DNA of 64,000 bases, taken from assembly GCA_913059205.1 (NCBI GenBank), contig CAJXRM010000001.1, forward strand, positions 22,636 through 86,635, given 5' to 3'. The notes beneath the pieces are model-generated. The model was not told where the DNA came from, searched no databases, and was given only the letters and a program-made list of their open reading frames with translations. Source of the DNA: an uncultured Flavobacteriales bacterium (lineage in GTDB: Bacteria > Bacteroidota > Bacteroidia > Flavobacteriales_D > Crocinitomicaceae). Shown here piece after piece: positions 2,516-33,165 of this stretch (position 1 is its first letter; every line of letters starts with the position of its first letter). The position numbers and the translations under genes are program-made.

Positions 2516-4248
2516 TTTTTTAGAGCTTGTACAATTGATGTGTTTGTTTCAGTATTGACATGAATAAAATAAACTCCGCTCGAAAAATGTTCGGTTGTTA
2601 AATTTAGCGAGTTTTTGCTAGTGAATTCAGGGGAAATAATTTCCACCATTTTTACACCAACTGAAGAATACACTGTAATGTCTTTTACCAATAATTGACT
2701 TTCGAAAGTTAAAGTCAGTTCATTTTGAAAAGGAATTGGAGATACCGACAACAGGTTTAAATTAGTTGTTTCTATTCCACCTGTTCCACCACCAACTGTA
2801 ATTTGGGCTGTTGTACTGCACCCGTTCGGCCCTGTAATTATTACAGTATAAGTTCCTCCGCATAAATTTGTAGCTGATTGTGTAGTTTGATTTAAAGCAT
2901 CATTCCATTGATAGGTATAAACTGAAGCATCTCCCGAAATAACGACATAAGCCGCTCCATCGCATGTTCCATTATCTGCACTTTGAAAAAGGCTAAAGTT
3001 TATTTCTTCAGGTCCTTCAACAATAACACAAATGTTTTCAGCTTCTAACAACGCATCTGTTACAGTAACGCAATAGGTTCCTGCATTTAAATTTGAAATG
3101 GATTGACTGGTTTGATTTCCTGCGTTCGAATCCCACTGATAAGTATACGGACTTTGACCAGCATAGGCGTTGATAGTAATTGCACCATCCGCTTCTCCAT
3201 CGCAACTTACGTTGGTAATATCAGGATTAATTGCCAGACCATTACTTGTTGGATATGTAACAACAGTTTTTAGTGTAACCGGTAAATGATCTGACATATA
3301 ATATAGGGCTTTTACAACACTGTCTGGATACTGACTGTTTACGGGACCAGCTATTAGACTTGAATTGAAGTGATTTCCATCGTTGCCAATTGCGTCGTAT
3401 GAGTTTGGTAGATATTTTAAGCTGTCACTTCCGTTCATTACTGTGCCACTAACTAAAATTTGATCGAAGCGATCGTCAGAACCACCTTGAGAACCACAAT
3501 CTAGGTTTTGACCATTTCTTGTGGATTGCGTATGCAAATAGGCAAAAGAACCGTTATTATTCCAATTTCCGGGAGCGTTTATTGGGTCGATCAATGGATT
3601 GGAACCACCAGTAGTTAGGTTTTGATAACAACTTTCAGTACTTCGGTAAACATTTAAATCACCGCAAACAAAATGATTTCTATTTTGCGGTCGAGCATCA
3701 ATATAATTGCGGAGTAATGTCACTTGGTCATTTCTTATTGATTGCTCAGAAGATCCAGAGCCAGCTTTTAAATGACACATGTAAACTTCTATAAAAGTTG
3801 TGTCAAATAAATTCGACAAATTTGGATCGTTGACATACAAAACATAATGATCAATATCACGGACACTGGTTTCAATGACATGTTGTTCGTGCAAAATCAA
3901 TTTGGTGGAGTTGTAATACAACATGTTCTGTAAATCACCACCATTAGAATCGTTGTGATAATTTGCTGCCGCATAATTTGTTTCACCAAACACATTTAAC
4001 GATCGTGTTAAAACGCTGTCAGCGCCTCGTTTGTTTTGAATTTCGCATGCTACAAAAATGTCTGGTTGAGCGTAGTTCAAGATTTTTCTTAACGTATCAA
4101 ATCTGTTCGGAACGTTGGTGTTTGAACCGCAGTCATTTCTACCATCTGGAAAGTTGAGTAAATTGTAGGAAACGATTGTGATGGTATCGGATTGAGCACT
4201 CAAAGAAGATGCAATTGCCAAAGCAACTATTAAGAGAATGTTTTTCAT
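2512..4248 (-). CDS. secreted endonuclease/exonuclease/phosphatase (EEP) family protein with two SprB-type repeats and T9SS CTD
   Basis: The start is probably the internal MKNILLIVALAIASSLSAQ (ATG at 4248) rather than 4278. The N-terminal domain is EEP-like (SYNLLNFP ..., GDLNV, SDHLPV). Two SprB-type repeats follow (CDGEADGAITINAYAGQSPYTYQWDS...GTYCVTVTD and CDGAAYVVISGDASVYTYQWND...GTYTVIITGPNGC). The C-terminal tail (VSPIPFQNELTLTF...GVYFIHV) is a T9SS CTD. Confidence 0.65.
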   Translation of the reverse strand: MKNILLIVALAIASSLSAQSDTITIVSYNLLNFPDGRNDCGSNTNVPNRFDTLRKILNYAQPDIFVACEIQNKRGADSVLTRSLNVFGETNYAAANYHNDSNGGDLQNMLYYNSTKLILHEQHVIETSVRDIDHYVLYVNDPNLSNLFDTTFIEVYMCHLKAGSGSSEQSIRNDQVTLLRNYIDARPQNRNHFVCGDLNVYRSTESCYQNLTTGGSNPLIDPINAPGNWNNNGSFAYLHTQSTRNGQNLDCGSQGGSDDRFDQILVSGTVMNGSDSLKYLPNSYDAIGNDGNHFNSSLIAGPVNSQYPDSVVKALYYMSDHLPVTLKTVVTYPTSNGLAINPDITNVSCDGEADGAITINAYAGQSPYTYQWDSNAGNQTSQSISNLNAGTYCVTVTDALLEAENICVIVEGPEEINFSLFQSADNGTCDGAAYVVISGDASVYTYQWNDALNQTTQSATNLCGGTYTVIITGPNGCSTTAQITVGGGTGGIETTNLNLLSVSPIPFQNELTLTFESQLLVKDITVYSSVGVKMVEIISPEFTSKNSLNLTTEHFSSGVYFIHVNTETNTSIVQALKN

Positions 4249-25432: not shown

Positions 25433-26626
25433 ATGCAAAGCATACATTCATACGATTTTTCGGGAAAAAGAGCACTTATTCGTGTAGATTTTAATGTTCC
25501 ATTGGACAAACAAACCAAAGAGGTTACAGATGACACGCGTATTAGAGCTGCTGCCAGAACGATACAATTTATACTTAAAAAGGGCGGAAGTGTTGTTTTG
25601 ATGTCACATTTAGGGAGACCTAAAGATGCATCGGATGTTGAGTTTTCGTTGCAGCAAATTGTGGCGCATACGTCAAAAGTGTTGGGAGTTGATGTAAAGT
25701 TTGGAGGCGACTGTATTGGTGCTGAAGGATTAGAAATGAGTAAAAACTTAAAGGCAGGTGAAGTCTTGATGTTAGAAAATGTGCGTTTTTACAAACAAGA
25801 AACGACAGGAACTGAGAGCTTTGCTGAGGCACTTTCAAAACACGGAGATGTCTACGTAAATGATGCTTTTGGAACTGCGCACCGGGCGCACGCAAGTACT
25901 ACAGTTGTGGCTAAGTTCTTTCCTAACGATAAAATGTTTGGGTTTTTGCTCGAGGGAGAAATCGATAGTGTAGATAAAGTATTGAATAGCACAGAAAAAC
26001 CATTAACAGCAATTGTAGGTGGGGCAAAAGTGTCTTCGAAAATTACAATAATTGAACGTTTACTGGATAAAGTAGATAACCTCATTGTGGGTGGTGGAAT
26101 GGCATACACTTTTGTCAAAGCCAAAGGAGGAAAAGTGGGAAATTCATTGGTTGAAGACGACTTTTTACCAATGGCTCTTGAAATAATTAAAAAAGCGAAA
26201 GATAAAGGTGTGAATTTGTACATTCCTGTTGATACAGTGATCGCTGACGGGTTTTCTAATGACGCAAATCGGCAGACAGTTGCAATTGATGAAATTCCAG
26301 AAGGCTGGATGGGATTGGATGTTGCAACTAAAACGGCTAAGGATTGTGCAGAAATAATTGAAAATTCTCGATTGATTTTATGGAACGGTCCTATGGGTGT
26401 TTTTGAAATGGAAAACTTCCAAGCCGGAACAAAAGCAGTTGCAGATGCGATAGTCGCAGCAACATCGAAGGGAGCTTTTTCATTAATTGGAGGCGGAGAT
26501 TCGGTTGCAGCTATCAATAAATTTAACCTCGCGGATAAAGTAAGCTACGTTTCTACCGGTGGTGGCGCAATGTTGGAATATTTGGAAGGAATAGAGTTGC
26601 CAGGAATCATAGCAATCAAGGCATAA
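25433..26626 (+). CDS. pgk: phosphoglycerate kinase
   Basis: [30 protein letters not shown] and STGGGA motifs. The start is moved to MQSIHSYDF, giving 397 aa. Confidence 0.9.
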
Positions 26627-26712
26627 AGACCATTCTAGTTTTGTGATTGGGAATAAAATTTGGCGAAAGAGTTCTTTTTTATGTAAATTGGGTTTTTAAA
26701 CTAATTGAATCT

Positions 26713-27177
26713 ATGACTAAACGAGGACTACTTTTGTTCTCTCTGCTATCTACTATTGGCGTTTCGGCGCAAGAAGTTGTTTCAACACAGGGAGAATCGT
26801 ATTCAAATTCAAATGGAAGTATCAATTTCACAATAGGGGAAGTTTCTATTGATACTGGAACTGACGGTACAAATGACATTACTCAAGGTTTTCATCAAAC
26901 AAATTGGAGCTTTTTAGGTTTAGAAGATCACGTTACGAGCTTTAATGCCTCAATTTTTCCTAATCCGACTTCTGAGGTTTTAATTCTTAAAATAAGTGCA
27001 TTCAATAATGTGCACTATTATTTATATGATGCTCAAGGAAAGTTGGTTCTCAATGATATTATTTCTGCTGAAGAGACATTGATTCAAGTGGGTCAATTTG
27101 CACCAGGCAACTATACTTTGAAATTAAACAAAGAAAATCAACACCTTAAAACATTTAAACTAGCTAAAAATCACTAA
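26713..27177 (+). CDS. small secreted protein with T9SS C-terminal sorting domain
   Basis: Start taken at MTKRGLLLFSLLSTIGVSAQ. A roughly 60-aa N-terminal module ends in ITQGFHQ. The CTD follows (SIFPNPTSEVLILKI...GNYTLKLN). Confidence 0.55.
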   Translation: MTKRGLLLFSLLSTIGVSAQEVVSTQGESYSNSNGSINFTIGEVSIDTGTDGTNDITQGFHQTNWSFLGLEDHVTSFNASIFPNPTSEVLILKISAFNNVHYYLYDAQGKLVLNDIISAEETLIQVGQFAPGNYTLKLNKENQHLKTFKLAKNH

Positions 27178-27180
27178 CCT

Positions 27181-28761
27181 ATGAAAAGAATAATTTTATC
27201 ACTCATAACAGTTATAGCCACGTTTTCGACATTCGGACAGGCTCCAGAAGGGTTTAAGTATCAAGCTGTAGTACGCGATGCTGGAAACGCTATTTTGGTT
27301 AATCAAGCAATTGGAATGCGCTTAACAATCCAACAAGGAAGCATAGGAGGTACGGCTATTTATACAGAAACCTTCGCGCCAACAACGAATGCCTATGGTC
27401 TTGTTAATTTGGAAATTGGTTCAGGGACAACAGTGGATAATTTCTCCATGATAAATTGGGCAAATGGTCCTTTTTATATGGAAACGGCTGTGGATGTAAC
27501 CGGTGGCTCAAGCTATTCTGTCATGGGAACGAGTCAATTAATGAGCGTTCCGTATGCACTTTATGCAAAAATAGCGGAATCTGTTACTAATGATGCAGTG
27601 AATGATGCTGATTCAAATCCAACAAATGAAATTCAATCGCTTCAATTGGTAGGACAAAACCTTACAATCACTGGTGGAAATACGGTAGTTATTCCTGGAG
27701 GCGGGAATACTTTAGATCAAGCTTACGATCAGGGAGGAGCTGGACTTGGAAGAGTTATTACTGTTGATGCGGGTGAAGTTGAACTGTCAAATGCAACACC
27801 AAATGGGATTGGATTGAGAGCTACAACTACAAATACGGGTGTAGGAATATTAGCAACATCATCAAATTCTGCGAATGGGTTTTCTCCAATACAAGCGAGC
27901 ACTAATGCCTCAAGTACCTTAACGTCAGCGATTGTTGGTAGTACAACAGGTGCAGCTTCTGCGGTATCTGGACAAGTTCAATCGACTGCAACTGCTGCAC
28001 AAGGAGTTTATGGAAACAACTTGAGAACAAATGGTGGATATGGAACGTATGGAATTGGACATAGTGGGACCGTAGGTGAAACAAACTACCAACTTGGATT
28101 TGGACTTTATGGACGAAATTATGACGCAATCGGACCATTGGGAAATGCAGTTGGAACTTATGGTATGGGTTACATTGGTGTTTGGGGAGATCAAAGTGAT
28201 CCGCTTGGCTACTCTGTATACGCGAATGGCGATTTTGGAGCCGCAGGAACTAAGGCGTTCGCAATAGATCACCCACTGGACCCGGCAAACAAATACCTGA
28301 AGCATTACAGTATAGAATCCAATGAAGTTTTGAACATGTATAGAGGAACGACTGCATTCGATGCGAACGGTGAAGCGGTTGTTACAATGCCAAATTATTT
28401 CGATGCGGTGAACACAAACTTTAGCTATCAATTGACACCAATTGGTGGATTTGCACCGCTATACATAAAGGAAAAATTGAATAATGGAGTATTTGTAATT
28501 GCAGGTGGGCTGCCTGGAATGGAAGTGTCTTGGTCTGTTTATGCAGAACGAAACGACCCGTATTTGCAGCAACACCCTGGATCAAAACAAGTTGAGGTGG
28601 TTAAGGAAGATTGGAACAAAGGAAAGTACTTACAACCAGATTTATACAATGAACCAGCGAGTAAGAAAATTGTTAAACAACTAGAAACAGGTGAAGCAAC
28701 ACAGGAAGGTGGTGTTGAGCAGAAGGAGGTTCAATTGATGGAAAGTAACAGAGAAAAGTAA
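27181..28761 (+). CDS. secreted tail-fibre/adhesin-like protein
   Basis: Signal peptide. An N-terminal FKYQAVVRDAGNAILVNQAIGMRLTIQQGS...AYGLVNLEIGSG module is followed by NDADSNPTNEIQSLQLVGQNLTITGGN, as in tail-fibre-like Bacteroidetes proteins, and a Gly/Thr/Ser-rich middle. I recall the C-terminal block IDHPLDPANKYLKH..ESNEV.NMYRG...YQLTPIGG..PLYI...VSW as a recurrent domain of unknown function. Confidence 0.45.
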   Translation: MKRIILSLITVIATFSTFGQAPEGFKYQAVVRDAGNAILVNQAIGMRLTIQQGSIGGTAIYTETFAPTTNAYGLVNLEIGSGTTVDNFSMINWANGPFYMETAVDVTGGSSYSVMGTSQLMSVPYALYAKIAESVTNDAVNDADSNPTNEIQSLQLVGQNLTITGGNTVVIPGGGNTLDQAYDQGGAGLGRVITVDAGEVELSNATPNGIGLRATTTNTGVGILATSSNSANGFSPIQASTNASSTLTSAIVGSTTGAASAVSGQVQSTATAAQGVYGNNLRTNGGYGTYGIGHSGTVGETNYQLGFGLYGRNYDAIGPLGNAVGTYGMGYIGVWGDQSDPLGYSVYANGDFGAAGTKAFAIDHPLDPANKYLKHYSIESNEVLNMYRGTTAFDANGEAVVTMPNYFDAVNTNFSYQLTPIGGFAPLYIKEKLNNGVFVIAGGLPGMEVSWSVYAERNDPYLQQHPGSKQVEVVKEDWNKGKYLQPDLYNEPASKKIVKQLETGEATQEGGVEQKEVQLMESNREK

Positions 28762-28968
28762 TTGGATGGTAGAAGCTGGTTTTTATGTAATGAAACCTGT
28801 AGTTTAAAGGATAGTTTTAGTGGGAACAAGGTGTATTTGTTGCGATGTTAAAACTTAATTTGTCCGTTTTACCTATGATTTAAAGCAACTCAACGAGGAA
28901 AAATGCTTTTTAAGCGAACTCTATTGTATTCGCATTACTTTAAACACCTTATTTCGAGCGAATTGAGT

Positions 28969-28976
28969 TATATTTG
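28969..28976 (+). promoter_or_regulatory. Bacteroidetes-type -7 promoter box (TATATTTG)
   Basis: Matches TAnnTTTG inside the 5' end of the track ORF 28903..29388 and 11 nt before the internal ATG at 28987. Confidence 0.35.
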
Positions 28977-28986
28977 TTTTGCAGAT

Positions 28987-29388
28987 ATGGATACCGATTT
29001 GGAAATAACAAAGGTGATGAACATTGTTCATGGAGTAATAGAGCTAAGGTCTGATAATATTTTATCTTTTAGACCAAACGCTGCTACTTTTAAGAATTAT
29101 GATCACAAAGTTTTATCGGATTTGTTGGAAGCTTTTATTGAAATAACAGAAGGTATACCAAGACCTTATTTATGCGATAACAGTTATGTTTCAGGAATTG
29201 TTAACAAGGAGGAATTGGCCTATATGAACGAAAACTTTGGTCGCTTCGCTACACATGCAGCAATGATTACCAGTTCTAATTTGATTCGAGTACTTCTAAA
29301 CAGTTACAATACCCTTTTTAAACCAAAAGTGGAGCTTAGATTGTTCAACTCAGAGAAGAAAGCCGTTGAATGGCTTTTGTCAAAATAA
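28987..29388 (+). CDS. hypothetical protein (133 aa from the internal start), possibly STAS/SpoIIAA-like
   Basis: ORF with a promoter box upstream and a strong terminator downstream. The family call rests only on a weak resemblance. Confidence 0.35.
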   Translation: MDTDLEITKVMNIVHGVIELRSDNILSFRPNAATFKNYDHKVLSDLLEAFIEITEGIPRPYLCDNSYVSGIVNKEELAYMNENFGRFATHAAMITSSNLIRVLLNSYNTLFKPKVELRLFNSEKKAVEWLLSK

Positions 29389-29400
29389 AAGAAATAACCC

Positions 29401-29436
29401 AAAATGGCGTCCAATTCAATTGGACGCCATTTTTTT
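29401..29436. terminator. bidirectional rho-independent terminator
   Basis: AAAATGGCGTCCAATT-C-AATTGGACGCCATTTT is a perfect 16-nt-arm palindrome followed by TTT. It lies 13 nt after the plus-strand stop (29388) and abuts the stop of the minus-strand micro-ORF. Confidence 0.75.
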
Positions 29437-29518
29437 AGCAACAGCTATTTGGTGTGCATTGACACGTACATGTGCAGTTACAGTTTTGATTTGTACAGCA
29501 CGTTTCTTGATTTTCCAT
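29435..29518 (-). CDS. 27-aa cysteine-rich peptide (metallothionein-like micro-ORF), not in the ORF track
   Basis: The minus strand reads ATG GAA AAT CAA GAA ACG TGC TGT ACA AAT CAA AAC TGT AAC TGC ACA TGT ACG TGT CAA TGC ACA CCA AAT AGC TGT TGC TAA, which is MENQETCCTNQNCNCTCTCQCTPNSCC. It has 9 Cys in 27 residues. An ECF-like promoter motif lies 34 nt upstream and a terminator follows immediately. Confidence 0.5.
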   Translation of the reverse strand: MENQETCCTNQNCNCTCTCQCTPNSCC

Positions 29519-29551
29519 GACTTTTATTTTAATTAATACTCTTTATTAAAG

Positions 29552-29577
29552 AGACGGAAGAATAAAAAAAAGACGCA
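29552..29577 (-). promoter_or_regulatory. ECF-type promoter candidate TGCGTC-N15-CGTCT (upstream of the Cys-rich micro-ORF)
   Basis: The minus strand reads TGCGTC TTTTTTTTATTCTTC CGTCT. The same half-sites and identical 15-nt spacing recur at 30130-30155. Confidence 0.45.
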
Positions 29578-29580
29578 AAA

Positions 29581-30114
29581 TTAGCACGAGCAGTTATCGA
29601 TGTTGGACGACATTATATTTCCGTATCGATCTGATTGTACTGCACAACATTGTGTAAATAGTTCTTTTAACTTCTGTCTTCCACGTTGAACTCTTGACTT
29701 TACTGTAGTATAAGAGAGACCAAGGTTTTCGGCATATTCTTTTTGAGAAATTTCTCCGTAAACGGTTTTTTCCAATGCATCCTTATATTTTTCAGGTAAC
29801 TGACTAATAAAGGGCATCATGCATTTAATAAATTGTGGATTTAAGCCGGATTCTTCATTTTGTTCTTGATGAATTATTACATCTTCAACCAACGGCAATT
29901 TCTTTTTGCGATAATGATCGATAATGGTATTTCGAGTAACTTGATATATCCAACTTGCAAGTTTATTTTCATCCAAAAGTTGATTTGAGTTTTGGTGTAT
30001 TTTAATAAAAACTTCTTGAAGTATGTCTTCAGCTACTGTCTTATCATTAATTCTTGCCTTAATAAATCCTAATAATTGACCGCTAAACTCTTTCCAAATA
30101 CGCTCTGTATTCAT
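29581..30114 (-). CDS. ECF sigma-70 family factor with Cys-rich C-terminal extension (SigZ / CorE-like)
   Basis: Region 2 (AEDILQEVFIKIH, WIYQVTRNTIIDHYRKKK) and region 4 (SQKEYAENLGLSYTTVKSRVQRGRQKLK) are present. An extra tail follows (FTQCCAVQSDRYGNIMSSNIDNCSC). No anti-sigma gene is adjacent. Confidence 0.7.
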   Translation of the reverse strand: MNTERIWKEFSGQLLGFIKARINDKTVAEDILQEVFIKIHQNSNQLLDENKLASWIYQVTRNTIIDHYRKKKLPLVEDVIIHQEQNEESGLNPQFIKCMMPFISQLPEKYKDALEKTVYGEISQKEYAENLGLSYTTVKSRVQRGRQKLKELFTQCCAVQSDRYGNIMSSNIDNCSC

Positions 30115-30129
30115 ACTTTTTTATAATAA

Positions 30130-30155
30130 AGACGAATGCGAATAAAAAAGACGCA
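30130..30155 (-). promoter_or_regulatory. ECF-type promoter candidate TGCGTC-N15-CGTCT (upstream of the sigma gene)
   Basis: The minus strand reads TGCGTC TTTTTTATTCGCATT CGTCT, ending 15 nt before the sigma ATG (30114). Confidence 0.45.
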
Positions 30156-30173
30156 TTTTTAAAACGCATGAAC

Positions 30174-30818
30174 CTAATTTTGATTGTAAACTAGTGTAAA
30201 AGTTACTTTAATTTCATCTTTGTTGATGTCCTTAGCGGTTACTTTATCGCGCAAAGGAAAATCAAGGGTGTTTACGACAAAAGAACCGGATAAAATATGT
30301 TCGCCATTTTCTTTAGTTGAGGAAATAGTAACATTCATTTTCTTAGACGTATTTTCAATTGTAAGTTCGCCATTTGCTTTAGAATCTGTTATTTCTGTTA
30401 AAATAAGAGTAGAATTTGGATGTTTTTTTATATCAAATAAGCCATTCCCTTTTTCTTTGGCAATCTTAAACGAAGCCATGTCAAAAATTACTGTAGCTTT
30501 CGTTAGGGCTTCATCCGTTGTAGTTAATTCTCCGTCTTTTAATGTTGCACTTCCGTTTGAGTTTAGCTTAACGGCTCCTAATTCGATATCAACAATTTGT
30601 CCAAACAGTTTCGTTTTTTGCTTTGTCGGTTTTTGATCCAAAGTGCGCTCCCAGTCCGCGCTGCTTTTATTGGGATTTAACGTATACTCCGCTACGATTG
30701 CTTCAATTTCTTCAACGGTTTGATTATCGGATTTGGGTGTTGAATTATCCGAAGTGTTTTCTGCACATGAAGAGAATAACAATCCAATTGTACAGAATAC
30801 CATAAATGATTTTTTCAT
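30174..30818 (-). CDS. YceI-like lipoprotein
   Basis: Lipobox LLFSSCA. The pattern YTLNPNKSSADW...ATVIFDMASF...LFDIKKHPNSTLILTEI...ANGELTIENTSKKMNV resembles the YceI polyisoprenoid-binding fold. Confidence 0.4.
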   Translation of the reverse strand: MKKSFMVFCTIGLLFSSCAENTSDNSTPKSDNQTVEEIEAIVAEYTLNPNKSSADWERTLDQKPTKQKTKLFGQIVDIELGAVKLNSNGSATLKDGELTTTDEALTKATVIFDMASFKIAKEKGNGLFDIKKHPNSTLILTEITDSKANGELTIENTSKKMNVTISSTKENGEHILSGSFVVNTLDFPLRDKVTAKDINKDEIKVTFTLVYNQN

Positions 30819-31003: not shown

Positions 31004-31936
31004 TTACATTTGCTCCAAAACTGCTATCCTTTTCTCTATTGGAGGATGAGTGGCAAAAACGCCAGAAATGGAAGCCATAAACCCTTTGGTAGATTCGCTG
31101 TTGTCGATGAACATTTGTTTTACATCGTCGCTTTTTGCTTCAATGTCTGAGTTTCCTGAAATTTTACGCAGCGCATTGGCCATAGCCAGCGGATTCTTGG
31201 TCATTTCGACTGCACCAGCATCTGCTAAATATTCGCGCTTTCGTGATAGTGCAAACTTGAAAACGATGGAAAGCGCATAAACGACCGCCGCAATTGCTAA
31301 CATTACAAGAATAGCTGCGCCTCCACCATCTTTTCCGTTGTTCTTTCTCCTCCCTGCTCCGCCGTACAATACTGAACGGAAAAGAACTTGTACAGCAAAC
31401 GCAAAAATTCCAACAAAAATGATTGTTATAATTAACAAACGAACGTCTTTGTTGCGAATGTGTGTTAATTCGTGTGCAATAACACCTTCCAACTCTCTGT
31501 CGTCCAATTTTTCAATTATTCCACGAGTTAAAGTTACAGCAAACGTTTTGTCATTAATACCGGAGGCAAAAGCATTCAAAGAATCAGTTTCAATAATGTA
31601 CAATTTAGGCATTTTCATTCCCACAGACATACACAAATTCTCCGTCAAGTTGTATATGCGCATATTGTCTTTTCGCTCTAAAGTTTTGGAATTGGTCGCC
31701 ATTTGAATAAGCGCGGAGTGAGACGCAAAGGCAATTAAAAACCAAATAAGAACCCCGGCAACTACAAATGGAATGTAGGTGATAAAACGGTAGTTAACTT
31801 CTTCCCATTCAGGTTGAAACATGAAGAAACAAAAGGCATAAACCGCTACAAAAATAAGTAGCGGAAATGCAATAAGTAAAAGAGCAGAACGTGTATTGTT
31901 TCTGCTAATTTGAGCGTGTAATCCTACGTATTTCAT
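31004..31936 (-). CDS. M48 family zinc metalloprotease (HtpX-like)
   Basis: HELTHI (HExxH) motif, four TM segments, and a C-terminal FATHPPIEKR typical of M48. Confidence 0.8.
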   Translation of the reverse strand: MKYVGLHAQISRNNTRSALLLIAFPLLIFVAVYAFCFFMFQPEWEEVNYRFITYIPFVVAGVLIWFLIAFASHSALIQMATNSKTLERKDNMRIYNLTENLCMSVGMKMPKLYIIETDSLNAFASGINDKTFAVTLTRGIIEKLDDRELEGVIAHELTHIRNKDVRLLIITIIFVGIFAFAVQVLFRSVLYGGAGRRKNNGKDGGGAAILVMLAIAAVVYALSIVFKFALSRKREYLADAGAVEMTKNPLAMANALRKISGNSDIEAKSDDVKQMFIDNSESTKGFMASISGVFATHPPIEKRIAVLEQM

Positions 31937-31943
31937 TCAATAA

Positions 31944-32507
31944 TTAGAATTTTACTTCTGGTGCAACGTCCATTTGAGCACGTCCGGCATCACCTAAATC
32001 AAACATTGGTTGAACAGTATATTTCTTAATACTTGCCACGATATTTGATGGAATGGATTCCACTGCATTGTTGTACTCTTTTGTTGCTGAGTTAAAGAAA
32101 CGACGCACGGCAGCTAATTTATTCTCAATATCCGAAATCTCGTGTTGCAATTGCATAAAGTTTGAGTTCGCTTTTAAGTCTGGATACGCTTCAATTTGAA
32201 TTTGGAAAGCGCTCATCGCCGCACCTAATTCTTTTTCTGCTGCGATTTTATCGTTTACTCCTGAAGCACCCATTGCTCGAGATCGAGCCTCCGTAACGCG
32301 AGTTAACACACCACTTTCGTGATCCATATACCCTTTTACTGCTCCCATCAATTGAGGAATCAAATCATGACGTTGTTTCAATTGCACATCAATATCTGCA
32401 AACGCATTTTCGCGGTTGTTCTTAAGTGCAACTAATTTGTTATTTGCTGAAATGTACCAAAGAATAAGAATCAATAAAATTCCTCCTCCTACTAATAATC
32501 CGATCAT
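31944..32507 (-). CDS. lemA: LemA family protein
   Basis: N-terminal TM helix, then NKLVALKNNRENAFADIDVQLKQRHDLIPQL...; 187 aa. It is immediately upstream of the M48 protease, which is a common pairing. Confidence 0.8.
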   Translation of the reverse strand: MIGLLVGGGILLILILWYISANNKLVALKNNRENAFADIDVQLKQRHDLIPQLMGAVKGYMDHESGVLTRVTEARSRAMGASGVNDKIAAEKELGAAMSAFQIQIEAYPDLKANSNFMQLQHEISDIENKLAAVRRFFNSATKEYNNAVESIPSNIVASIKKYTVQPMFDLGDAGRAQMDVAPEVKF

Positions 32508-32682: not shown

Positions 32683-33165
32683 ATGACTGCACGAGAGTAC
32701 AATTTAGCGGTAGATGATTACTCGGATAATATTTTCCGATTTGCATTGAAACACCTCAAAAACGAGATGTCAGCTAAGGATATTGTGCAAGAAACGTTTG
32801 CAAAAGTGTGGTCGAAACATGAAGACATCAACGTAGAAAAGGTGAAATCGTATTTGTTTATAACGGCTTACCACGCAATTGTAGATTGGGTGAAGAGTGA
32901 AAAGCGTTCGGGAGATATTGAGCAAACCAAAGAACAAGGAACAAGCGGGAATGTGTCATTTGACTTACAAAGTGTATTAAATGAAGCGCTTGAAAAATTA
33001 CCGGAAGTTCAGAAGTCTGTTGTTTTATTAAGAGATTATGAGGGATATAATTATGCAGAAATTTCAGAAATAACAGGACTGAATGAATCGCAAGTGAAAG
33101 TGTATATTTTTAGGGCACGATTGACTTTGCGAGAATATCTAAAACGACTTGATTTAGTAATATAA
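32683..33165 (+). CDS. ECF sigma-70 family RNA polymerase sigma factor
   Basis: 160 aa; region 2 (AKDIVQETFAKVW, YLFITAYHAIVDWVK) and region 4 (YAEISEITGLNESQVKVYIFRARLTLRE). Confidence 0.8.
   Translation: MTAREYNLAVDDYSDNIFRFALKHLKNEMSAKDIVQETFAKVWSKHEDINVEKVKSYLFITAYHAIVDWVKSEKRSGDIEQTKEQGTSGNVSFDLQSVLNEALEKLPEVQKSVVLLRDYEGYNYAEISEITGLNESQVKVYIFRARLTLREYLKRLDLVI

What the first reader, a model, noticed from the sequence alone, without database searches (positions are those of the whole stretch)
29435..29518. Unannotated 27-codon ORF with 9 cysteines, bracketed by a promoter-like motif and a terminator
The minus strand encodes MENQETCCTNQNCNCTCTCQCTPNSCC, with the cysteines arranged as CC, four overlapping CxC and a final CC. 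This is below the ORF-track length cutoff.

A 28-codon open frame alone means little. One third Cys codons in a low-GC genome is not a chance pattern, however. The frame is also preceded by a promoter-like motif 34 nt upstream and ends exactly at a strong bidirectional terminator.

CxC-rich composition is the hallmark of metallothioneins. The peptide lies directly downstream, on the same strand, of an ECF sigma factor with its own Cys-rich tail. If real, it would be an unusually short bacterial metallothionein-like peptide. Alternatives are a redox or metal buffer, a RiPP precursor, or a small sigma-binding modulator.
Basis: partly seen in the sequence, partly recalled or inferred. Interest (0 to 1): 0.75.

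Follow-up and report, generated by a model that had tools for sequence, protein, structure and literature searches.

The report
Sigma-controlled cysteine-rich mini-gene, metallothionein-like
The 27-codon, 9-cysteine ORF is a real, conserved but almost never annotated gene with its own promoter and terminator, paired with a cysteine-bearing SigZ-type sigma factor in many bacteria, and it most likely soaks up thiol-seeking toxic metals or metalloids.

Summary
Window 29435..29518 (-) encodes MENQETCCTNQNCNCTCTCQCTPNSCC, 62 nt downstream of a SigZ-family (ECF238) sigma gene, and a 15-bp-stem terminator starts 1 nt after the stop.

It is not a chance ORF. Of 170 SigZ loci fetched from genomes and metagenomes, 88 carry a small Cys-rich ORF behind the same bipartite motif, TTTGCGTC(T/C)TTTT-N10/11-CGTCTAT.

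- This motif occurs exactly twice in the 64-kb window: before sigZ and before the peptide ORF.
- In ten close homologues all ten Cys columns are invariant, yet each uses both TGT and TGC (pS 0.73, pN 0.18).
- No flanking gene other than sigZ is shared.
- Gene callers miss the ORF. Eight of ten homologues are absent from a 15-billion-protein collection. No Pfam, NCBIfam or PDB match exists.

In other lineages the same promoter sits in front of arsenite methyltransferase, ArsI/CadI, ArsP-type permeases and DUF2703/DUF6428 proteins with Cys tails.

Best reading: SigZ senses a metal(loid) through its own cysteines and switches on a metallothionein-like peptide. Induction and metal binding are inferred, not shown.

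This is a new variant of a known kind, and it gives the uncharacterised SigZ group a testable function.

The parts
30130..30155 (-). SigZ-type ECF promoter motif (TGCGTC-N15-CGTCT) 15 nt upstream of the sigZ ATG; inferred autoregulatory promoter
   Evidence: One of only two exact matches in the 64-kb window (expected 0.06). The same position upstream of sigZ is occupied in 70 of 170 related loci.
29581..30114 (-). SigZ-family (ECF238) sigma factor, 177 aa. Conserved Cys98 in the linker, Cys156-Cys157, and a C-terminal Cys175-x-Cys177.
   Evidence: TIGR02959 SigZ scores 194.6 bits, above its cutoff. Sigma70_r2 and r4_2 domains are present. Cys conservation is seen across 30 homologues. The ECF238 assignment of SigZ is from PMC7826278.
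29552..29580 (-). Second SigZ-type promoter (TTTTGCGTCTTTTTTTTATTCTTCCGTCT), starting right after the sigZ stop codon and driving the small ORF
   Evidence: Exact motif hit. The motif is conserved in the sigZ-to-peptide intergenic region of about 32 aligned loci. In the position matrix the spacer is 15 nt in 109 hits and 16 nt in 50. 88 hits precede small Cys-rich ORFs.
29519..29551 (-). Short A/T-rich leader between the -10-like CGTCT and the ATG (33 nt; the transcript's 5' UTR is probably about 25 nt). The block GAGTATTAATTAAAA is shared with close relatives.
   Evidence: Sequence and comparison with L161-L170. The distance from CGTCT to the ATG has a median of 42 nt and a range of 22-56 nt across the family. 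The transcription start is inferred, not mapped.
29435..29518 (-). 27-codon ORF, MENQETCCTNQNCNCTCTCQCTPNSCC. It has 9 Cys (33%), no aromatic residues and no His.
   Evidence: Codon analysis gives pS 0.73 against pN 0.18, with all Cys columns invariant and both Cys codons used in each. The 99%-identical relative L161 carries the identical peptide.
29401..29433 (.). Intrinsic terminator: a 15-pair stem flanked by A- and T-tracts, shared with the convergent DUF7793 gene (28903..29388 +)
   Evidence: Close relatives carry a terminator of different sequence at the same place. 67 of 81 family loci have a hairpin plus T-tract within 90 nt of the stop.

Best explanation
The ORF is a genuine monocistronic mini-gene: ECF promoter, short leader, 27 codons, terminator. 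It forms a two-gene module with the SigZ-type sigma factor just upstream.

Proposed mechanism:
1. SigZ has no anti-sigma partner. Like its ECF238 relatives CorE and CorE2, it carries its own sensor: the conserved linker Cys98, Cys156-157 and the C-terminal CxC.
2. Binding of a thiol-seeking metal or metalloid makes SigZ competent for transcription. Candidates are As(III)/Sb(III), Cd, Hg, Cu and Zn.
3. SigZ-RNA polymerase then fires from the two TGCGTC-N15-CGTCT promoters. This raises sigZ itself and produces the Cys-rich peptide.
4. The cytoplasmic peptide binds the metal(loid) through its CC, CxC and C-terminal CC thiolates. It acts as a metallothionein-like buffer, or as a hand-off tail.
5. 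As free metal(loid) falls, SigZ switches off, giving negative feedback.

Shown here:
- The gene is real, conserved and under purifying selection.
- It shares its promoter motif with sigZ.
- In other lineages the same promoter precedes arsenic and heavy-metal resistance genes.

Inferred:
- SigZ recognises this motif.
- SigZ is activated by a metal(loid).
- The peptide binds that metal(loid).
For: Gene reality:
- The ORF, the sigma gene and the terminator are where reported.
- A small Cys-rich ORF lies downstream of sigZ on the same strand in 42 of 80 genome loci, mostly 64-92 nt away. Across all 170 loci, 88 carry one behind the motif.
- The family consensus is M[KE]NQxxCC..NCxCxxCxCNCxC..xxCC-stop.
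- In ten close homologues all 10 Cys columns are invariant, each uses both TGT and TGC, and pS is 0.73 against pN 0.18.
- Flanking genes differ between relatives, while the promoter, ORF and terminator stay together. Only sigZ is shared across the peptide loci.

Regulation:
- The motif occurs exactly twice in the window, before sigZ and before the ORF, against 0.06 expected.
- The same two positions are occupied in related loci. The spacer is 15 or 16 nt in 159 of 161 hits.
- ECF sigma factors usually autoregulate, which identifies their target promoter (PMC7826278).

Function:
- Behind the same motif in other lineages lie arsenite methyltransferase (NF008823: 326.7, 283.9 and 327.2 bits against a cutoff of 263) and ArsI/CadI (189.7 against 116).
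- Also found there are ArsP_1 permeases, DUF2703 and DUF6428 proteins with Cys-rich or CC tails, and a PIG-L deacetylase.
- ECF238 members CorE and CorE2 are activated by metals through Cys-rich C-terminal extensions and lack anti-sigma factors (PMC7826278 and PMC8999054).
- The peptide is 33% Cys with no aromatic residues or His. One 89-aa homologue is labelled 'Metallothionein' in UniRef.
Against: - No expression, translation, induction or metal-binding data exist for any member.
- There is no sequence homology to any described metallothionein family, nor any Pfam, NCBIfam or PDB match.
- The sensed signal is unknown. The target genes would also fit a general thiol or electrophile stress response; they include a hexapeptide-repeat (CysE-like) protein and a PIG-L deacetylase.
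- B. subtilis SigZ is reported as not directing its own transcription and has an undetermined function (PMC4105308). The family may therefore be heterogeneous.
- CorE and CorE2 are only partly autoregulated.
- Assigning the motif to SigZ rests on co-occurrence only.
- The window's SigZ lacks the CxC linker motif of CorE-like sigmas.
Confidence: 0.6

Rival explanations
1. The peptide is mainly a regulator of SigZ rather than a bulk metal buffer. It would be a mini anti-sigma-like or feedback partner that binds SigZ's cysteine tail directly, or strips or donates its metal, and so sets the switch-off kinetics of a sigma factor that has no conventional anti-sigma.
For: - The ORF occupies the slot directly downstream of the sigma gene, where ECF anti-sigma genes normally sit.
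- ECF238 has no known anti-sigma factor.
- sigZ is the only gene that always accompanies the ORF.
- Both proteins have CC and CxC motifs and end in Cys pairs.
Against: - The peptide has its own promoter, so it is a target as well as an operon partner.
- In other lineages the same slot and promoter hold enzymes and transporters (ArsM, ArsP-like, ArsI), which are effectors rather than regulators.
- Length (20-101 aa) and Cys spacing vary widely, which is unusual for a specific protein-binding partner.
- There is no anti-sigma domain and no HxxxCxxC motif.
Confidence: 0.15
2. The module answers thiol, redox or electrophile stress rather than metals. SigZ's cysteines would sense oxidation or alkylation, and the peptide would be a sacrificial thiol buffer.
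For: - Cys-based sensing of disulfide stress is known in other ECF systems (SigK is discussed in PMC7826278).
- Some motif-preceded genes relate to thiol supply: a PIG-L deacetylase and a hexapeptide-repeat, CysE-like protein.
Against: - The recognisable recurrent targets are specific to arsenic or heavy metals: ArsM 10 hits, ArsP-like 8, ArsI/CadI 1.
- Characterised ECF238 members respond to Cu, Cd and Zn.
- CxC and CC arrays without spacing for stable disulfides are typical of metal-thiolate clusters (general knowledge).
Confidence: 0.12
3. The ORF is a precursor of a ribosomally made, modified or exported peptide (RiPP, bacteriocin or signal).
For: It is small, Cys-rich and unannotated. Some Saprospiraceae loci carry longer Cys-rich ORFs with a hydrophobic, signal-peptide-like N-terminus.
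Against: - No maturation enzyme, protease or transporter gene is shared among the 89 loci with the peptide (the 88 related loci plus the window); only sigZ is.
- Only about 6 residues precede the first Cys, so there is no leader.
- There is no signal peptide in the window peptide.
- Most loci have a terminator right after the ORF.
Confidence: 0.04
4. It is not a protein-coding gene. It would be a chance ORF, a Cys-codon leader for attenuation, or a non-coding RNA.
For: It is very short and A/T-rich with no Shine-Dalgarno sequence. A 9-Cys ORF did arise once in 200 randomisations. It is followed immediately by a terminator, as attenuator leaders are.
Against: - Frame and Cys are conserved across phyla with synonymous TGT/TGC turnover.
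- No gene follows the terminator on the same strand; the next gene is convergent.
- No Rfam match was found.
- Bacteroidota commonly lack Shine-Dalgarno sequences (general knowledge).
Confidence: 0.03

Closest known systems
CorE / CorE2 of Myxococcus xanthus and B. subtilis SigZ (ECF group ECF238)
   Same: The adjacent sigma factor has only sigma2 and sigma4 domains, a short Cys-bearing C-terminal extension, a conserved linker Cys, and no anti-sigma gene. It scores as SigZ.
   Different: The linker has a single Cys, not the CxC of CorE-like (former ECF44) sigmas. The targets found here are a Cys-rich peptide and, in other lineages, ars-type genes, rather than a P-type ATPase, multicopper oxidase or CDF transporter. 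The SigZ regulon and signal were previously undetermined.
Fungal copper metallothioneins of about 25-26 residues (Neurospora crassa, Agaricus bisporus); recalled from general knowledge, not tested here
   Same: Similar size and Cys fraction, CxC-dominated spacing, no aromatic residues.
   Different: No detectable homology. The bacterial family has a conserved M[KE]NQ start, an N-terminal CC and a C-terminal CC at the very end. Its metal preference is unknown.
Bacterial metallothioneins with dedicated sensors: SmtA/BmtA under SmtB, and MymT under RicR
   Same: A small Cys-rich cytoplasmic protein placed under a metal-sensing regulator encoded next to it or in the same regulon (MymT/RicR is described in PMC10141476).
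   Different: Those use repressors of the ArsR/SmtB or CsoR type. Here the regulator is an alternative sigma factor acting positively. There is no match to Pfam metallothionein models. The peptide is about half the size of SmtA or MymT.
Yeast Ace1/Cup2 and CUP1 (general knowledge)
   Same: The logic is the same: a transcription activator whose own cysteine cluster binds the metal turns on a metallothionein gene, which then buffers the metal.
   Different: It is a eukaryotic DNA-binding activator, unrelated in sequence and mechanism to a bacterial sigma factor.
Vicinal-cysteine metal(loid) acquisition sites: the MerA C-terminal CC and the ArsD / ArsR Cys pairs (general knowledge)
   Same: A CC pair at the extreme C-terminus recurs on the peptide (48 of 75 unique members). 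It also recurs on other motif-preceded proteins: DUF2703 ...SSSCC, DUF6428 ...GGGCC, and a flavoprotein ...RGCC.
   Different: In those proteins the pairs belong to larger enzymes or chaperones. No transfer function has been shown for the peptide.

Membership tests
SigZ / ECF238 sigma factor (the adjacent gene) | ECF architecture (sigma2 plus sigma4 only) and a match to the SigZ equivalog model | tested here: met
   PF04542 and PF08281 match. TIGR02959 scores 194.6 bits against a cutoff of 168.65. NF007215 scores 205.2 bits, just under its 212 cutoff.
SigZ / ECF238 sigma factor (the adjacent gene) | Short (about 20 aa) Cys-containing C-terminal extension and no anti-sigma factor gene nearby | tested here: met
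   CC156-157 and C175-x-C177 are conserved in 30 homologues. No anti-sigma-like gene lies next to sigZ, and none is shared across loci. The definition is from PMC7826278.
CorE-like sigma factors (former ECF44) | CxC motif in the sigma2-sigma4 linker, strictly conserved in ECF44 | tested here: not met
   There is only a single invariant Cys98 (..FIKCMMPF..) in the linker. The criterion is from PMC6851896 and PMC8999054.
CorE-like / ECF238 | Activation by binding of a specific metal to the Cys-rich extension | not testable with these tools
   This needs in vitro transcription or reporter assays with metals.
Metallothionein (operational definition) | Low molecular mass; high Cys content in CC, CxC or CxxC motifs; few or no aromatic residues | tested here: met
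   The peptide is 27 aa with 9 Cys (33%): CC, four overlapping CxC, then CC. It has no F, W, Y or H. The family median is 39 aa and 28% Cys.
Metallothionein (operational definition) | Formation of metal-thiolate clusters; metal-inducible expression | not testable with these tools
   This is inferred only from the promoter being shared with ars and heavy-metal genes in other lineages.
Described bacterial metallothionein families (SmtA/BmtA and others in Pfam, NCBIfam or PDB) | Detectable sequence homology to the family model | tested here: not met
   There are no hits for the window peptide or for 8 homologues in Pfam and NCBIfam, even at E of 1-10. There are none in PDB sequences. HMMER's composition filters may hide weak matches.
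RiPP precursor peptide | Co-located maturation enzyme(s) or transporter, and a leader-core layout | tested here: not met
   Neighbour clustering over 89 loci finds only sigZ shared. The first Cys is at residue 7. A terminator follows the ORF.
ECF anti-sigma factor (class I ASD / zinc-binding ZAS) | Anti-sigma domain of about 80-90 aa, with HxxxCxxC in ZAS proteins | tested here: not met
   The peptide is 27 aa with no His and no domain hit. Only the gene position downstream of the sigma gene resembles an anti-sigma factor.
Attenuation leader peptide | Regulated structural genes downstream of the terminator on the same strand | tested here: not met
   The next gene (28903..29388) is on the opposite strand and convergent. 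No minus-strand ORF longer than 66 aa lies below it in 26000..29400 apart from shadow frames of plus-strand genes.

The most novel reading that the evidence does not exclude
SigZ-type ECF238 sigma factors would be one-component sensors of arsenite or other thiol-seeking metal(loid)s. Their commonest target would be a previously unrecognised, phylum-spanning family of 20-100-residue metallothionein-like peptides. These peptides are missed by gene callers because most fall below length cutoffs. Their invariant C-terminal CC would act as a capture or hand-off site. This would be the first metallothionein-type system under direct sigma-factor control, and the first assigned function for SigZ.
Probability: 0.4. 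Interest if true: 0.8.

Novelty: new variant of a known kind. Interest (0 to 1): 0.72.

Why it matters
- It reveals a widespread small-gene family that annotation pipelines and protein databases almost entirely miss. None of the eight close-relative contigs that extend past sigZ has a gene called there, and 8 of 10 homologues are absent from 15 billion proteins.
- It gives the SigZ/ECF238 group a concrete promoter motif and a concrete target set. B. subtilis SigZ is still listed as 'function not determined'. The question 'what does SigZ sense and do?' becomes directly testable with a reporter fusion and a handful of metals.
- If the peptide binds metal(loid)s, it would be among the shortest metallothioneins known. 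It would also be a new regulator-effector pairing: a sigma factor with an on-board cysteine sensor coupled to a cysteine-rich buffer.
- This is relevant to arsenic and heavy-metal handling by marine and soil Bacteroidota, and it could serve as a compact, orthogonal metal-inducible expression module.

Tried and rejected
- A profile search of 5.8 billion proteins with the 32-member alignment gave nothing at E of 1 or below. The profile is too short and too low in complexity for that database size, so this says nothing about rarity.
- Pfam and NCBIfam scans of the peptide and 8 homologues gave no hits. PDB sequence searches gave none. An Rfam scan of 28800..30300 gave no hit.
- The generic sigma-70 promoter scan found nothing relevant on the minus strand. 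The real signal is an ECF-type motif.
- The metagenome scan with the single SigZ protein returned only relatives of 55% identity or less. Close relatives had to be fetched one at a time.
- A 5'-UTR hairpin looked conserved by eye in Sphingobacteriia-type loci. It is absent from the window's clade and is not universal (mean z -0.95), so it was dropped as a defining part.
- Supplementary text of the ECF reclassification paper, which may give the ECF238 promoter motif and context, is not held.
- Literature searches found no description of the peptide family or of a SigZ-arsenic link.
- Structure prediction was not run. A 27-residue metal-dependent peptide would give an uninformative model, and the tool returns no inter-residue distances with which to test Cys clustering in SigZ.

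Full report
**1. The observation**

The minus strand of window 29435..29518 encodes MENQETCCTNQNCNCTCTCQCTPNSCC: 27 codons, an ATG start and 9 Cys.

- The gene 62 nt upstream on the same strand (29581..30114) is a 177-aa ECF sigma factor. It matches the SigZ equivalog TIGR02959 above its cutoff (194.6 against 168.65 bits) and has only sigma2 and sigma4 domains.
- A 15-pair hairpin flanked by A- and T-tracts (29433..29401) starts 1 nt after the stop codon. It is the only terminator-like site in 28800..30400. It also serves the convergent DUF7793 gene at 28903..29388.
- The window is 36% G+C. This ORF has the highest Cys count of all 434 ATG-ORFs of at least 20 aa; among those of 60 aa or fewer the next has 5 Cys. 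An ORF of 20-60 aa with at least 9 Cys appeared in 1 of 200 Markov-1 randomisations.

On its own this is suggestive. With the comparative data below it is decisive.

**2. Conservation**

I aligned 30 SigZ homologues. Invariant or near-invariant are Cys98, Cys156-157, and Cys175 and Cys177. I used that alignment to fetch 80 loci from species-representative genomes, then 80 metagenome loci and 10 close relatives.

- A small Cys-rich ORF lies downstream of sigZ on the same strand in 42 of the first 80 loci, usually 64-92 nt after the stop.
- Across all 170 loci, 88 have such an ORF behind the motif described below.
- Carriers include Flavobacteriales, Sphingobacteriia-like and Cytophagales Bacteroidota, Balneolales, Kapaibacteria and Paenibacillus.
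- The consensus is M[KE]NQxxCC..NCxCxxCxCNCxC..xxCC-stop.
- There are 75 unique peptides, with a median length of 39 aa (range 20-101) and a median Cys content of 28%. Of these, 48 end in CC.

In the ten closest homologues, all ten Cys columns are invariant. Every one of those columns uses both TGT and TGC. Pooled pS is 0.73 against pN of 0.18. That is the signature of selection on the protein, not on the DNA or RNA.

The flanking genes differ even among close relatives: YceI and DUF7793 here, but CarboxypepD_reg, Phenol_MetA_deg or EPSP synthase elsewhere. The promoter, ORF and terminator stay attached to sigZ throughout. Clustering of all neighbouring ORFs of at least 90 aa finds no family shared across the peptide loci except sigZ.

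**3. The gene is essentially unannotated**

- None of the eight close-relative contigs that extend past sigZ has a gene called between sigZ and the next gene.
- Eight of ten homologous peptides, including the window's, are absent from a 15-billion-protein collection. The Flammeovirga 89-aa form is 'hypothetical protein', with one UniRef label of 'Metallothionein'.
- No Pfam, NCBIfam, PDB or Rfam match exists.

**4. Regulation**

The sigZ-to-peptide intergenic regions share a strong bipartite motif, TTTGCGTC(T/C)TTTT-N10/11-CGTCTAT.

- The spacer between TGCGTC and CGTCT is 15 nt in 109 hits and 16 nt in 50.
- This looks like an ECF promoter: a -35 element followed by a T-tract, then a CGTC-type -10 element.
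- In the 64-kb window the pattern TGCGTC-N14-17-CGTCT occurs exactly twice, against 0.06 expected. One copy is at 30130..30155, 15 nt before the sigZ ATG. The other is at 29552..29577, 33 nt before the peptide ATG.
- The same pair of positions recurs in the related loci.
- Of 213 relaxed motif hits, 70 precede sigZ and 88 precede a small Cys-rich ORF.

ECF sigma factors typically autoregulate, and this is how their target promoters are usually recognised (PMC7826278). The simplest reading is therefore that this is the SigZ promoter, and that the mini-gene is SigZ's main local target.

No terminator separates sigZ from the ORF, so read-through from the sigZ promoter is also possible. Most family members (67 of 81) have a terminator within 90 nt of the stop.

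The association survives rearrangement. In Marinifilum the motif and an 83-aa Cys-rich ORF lie upstream of sigZ. In L056 the ORF is convergent with sigZ.

**5. What the module is for**

SigZ belongs to ECF238, which merged the former ECF24 and ECF44. The group has no anti-sigma factor. Its characterised members, CorE and CorE2, are switched on by Cu or by Cd/Zn binding to Cys-rich C-terminal extensions (PMC7826278, PMC8999054 and PMC6851896). The function of B. subtilis SigZ is 'not yet determined' (PMC4105308).

In lineages without the small ORF, the same promoter motif in the same slot precedes other genes:

- Arsenite methyltransferase, NF008823 above cutoff in L039, L061 and L066.
- An ArsI/CadI metalloenzyme in L068.
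- ArsP_1 permeases related to Cu/Zn and organoarsenical efflux proteins, in 8 loci.
- DUF2703 and DUF6428 proteins carrying Cys-rich or CC tails.
- A PIG-L deacetylase and a hexapeptide-repeat, CysE-like protein.
- A flavoprotein that ends in ..RGCC.

So the regulon signature is detoxification of thiol-seeking metal(loid)s.

The peptide's composition fits the operational definition of a metallothionein: 33% Cys in CC and CxC arrays, no aromatic residues, no His and no signal peptide. The recurring C-terminal CC resembles the vicinal-Cys capture sites of MerA, ArsD and ArsR (general knowledge).

**6. Mechanism proposed**

A metal(loid) binds SigZ's own cysteines. SigZ-RNA polymerase then fires both promoters. 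The peptide accumulates and binds the metal(loid). Free metal falls and the system resets.

Shown here:
- The gene is real and under selection.
- It shares its motif with sigZ.
- Ars and heavy-metal genes sit behind the same motif elsewhere.

Inferred:
- SigZ reads this motif.
- SigZ is activated by a metal(loid).
- The peptide binds that metal(loid).

**7. Rivals**

- *Direct regulator of SigZ.* A feedback or anti-sigma-like role is not excluded, given the gene's position and its exclusive pairing with sigZ. It is weakened because effector enzymes occupy the same slot in other lineages, and because peptide length and Cys spacing vary widely.
- *General thiol or electrophile stress.* This is possible but fits the ars-type targets less well.
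- *RiPP precursor.* Disfavoured: there is no shared enzyme or transporter, no leader, and a terminator follows the ORF.
- *Attenuator leader.* Excluded in the window, because nothing follows on the same strand.
- *Chance ORF or non-coding RNA.* Contradicted by the codon evidence.

**8. Comparison with known systems and novelty**

The module works like a sensor-metallothionein pair, such as SmtB/SmtA, RicR/MymT or yeast Ace1/CUP1. The difference is that the sensor here is a sigma factor.

- The peptide is not a member of any described metallothionein family by sequence.
- The sigma factor is SigZ-type. It is not CorE-type, because it lacks the linker CxC motif.
- In the held literature I found no description of the peptide family, of the promoter-target pairing, or of a SigZ-arsenic link. 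The ECF238 supplementary text could not be read. It may already list the promoter motif and the annotated neighbours, but it could not have seen unannotated ORFs.

Verdict: this is a real feature and a new variant of a known kind. Interest is 0.72.

Noticed in passing
L039:3594-4385, L061:3692-4468, L066:1178-2017, L068:3642-4079, L070:3639-4586, L076:3795-4880: In SigZ loci without the small ORF, the same promoter motif directly downstream of sigZ precedes arsenite methyltransferase, ArsI/CadI or ArsP_1 permease genes. I found no published link between SigZ-type sigma factors and arsenic or heavy-metal resistance.
   Followed up: partly
L115:637-1080, L152:715-1179, L062:354-1766, L109:2391-2807: Larger proteins behind the SigZ-type motif carry Cys-rich tails. 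DUF2703 ends ...GCGCNSSSCC, DUF6428 ends ...PGGGCC, a flavoprotein ends ...RGCC, and another DUF2703 starts with a CC/CxC cluster. A terminal CC looks like a hallmark of this regulon.
   Followed up: partly
L013, L014, L015, L018, L021, L024, L025, L028, L029, L046 (5' UTR of the peptide gene, about 3565-3600): In Sphingobacteriia-type loci the leader begins with a hairpin (GGTTATA..TATAACC; z of -2 to -5 against shuffles) right after the -10 element. It is absent from the window's clade. It may be a 5'-end stabiliser or a regulatory element.
   Followed up: partly
L036, L040, L042, L047, L052, L094 (minus strand, upstream of sigZ): Saprospiraceae SigZ loci carry instead a divergent ORF of about 100-130 aa. 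It has a hydrophobic, signal-peptide-like N-terminus and many CC pairs (..CCDVSVCC..CCDLSTCC..), and may be an exported variant of the Cys-rich partner.
   Followed up: no
L033, L034, L037, L067 (about 3589-3652): Imperialibacter loci have an extreme 20-codon version (MGDDCCGGGCCGGGSSTGCC) behind a one-mismatch motif (AGCGTC..CGTCT). In L067 a second motif precedes a PIG-L family deacetylase.
   Followed up: no
L088 (peptide ORF downstream of sigZ): One member (MENQKNCCSTETTTCKCENNTCKCTCNCNCTCDDKN) stops before the otherwise conserved terminal SCC seen in its close relatives L083, L089 and L090. This could be a natural truncation or an assembly error.
   Followed up: no
window 32683..33165 (+): A second, unrelated ECF-type sigma ORF (160 aa) lies about 2.5 kb away on the opposite strand. 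It was not examined.
   Followed up: no
window 30174..30818 (-) and 31004..32507 (-): Upstream of sigZ on the same strand are a YceI-domain lipoprotein-like gene, then an M48 peptidase and a LemA-like pair. Both are kept in the 99%-identical contig L161 but not in relatives at about 70% identity, so they are not part of the module.
   Followed up: partly
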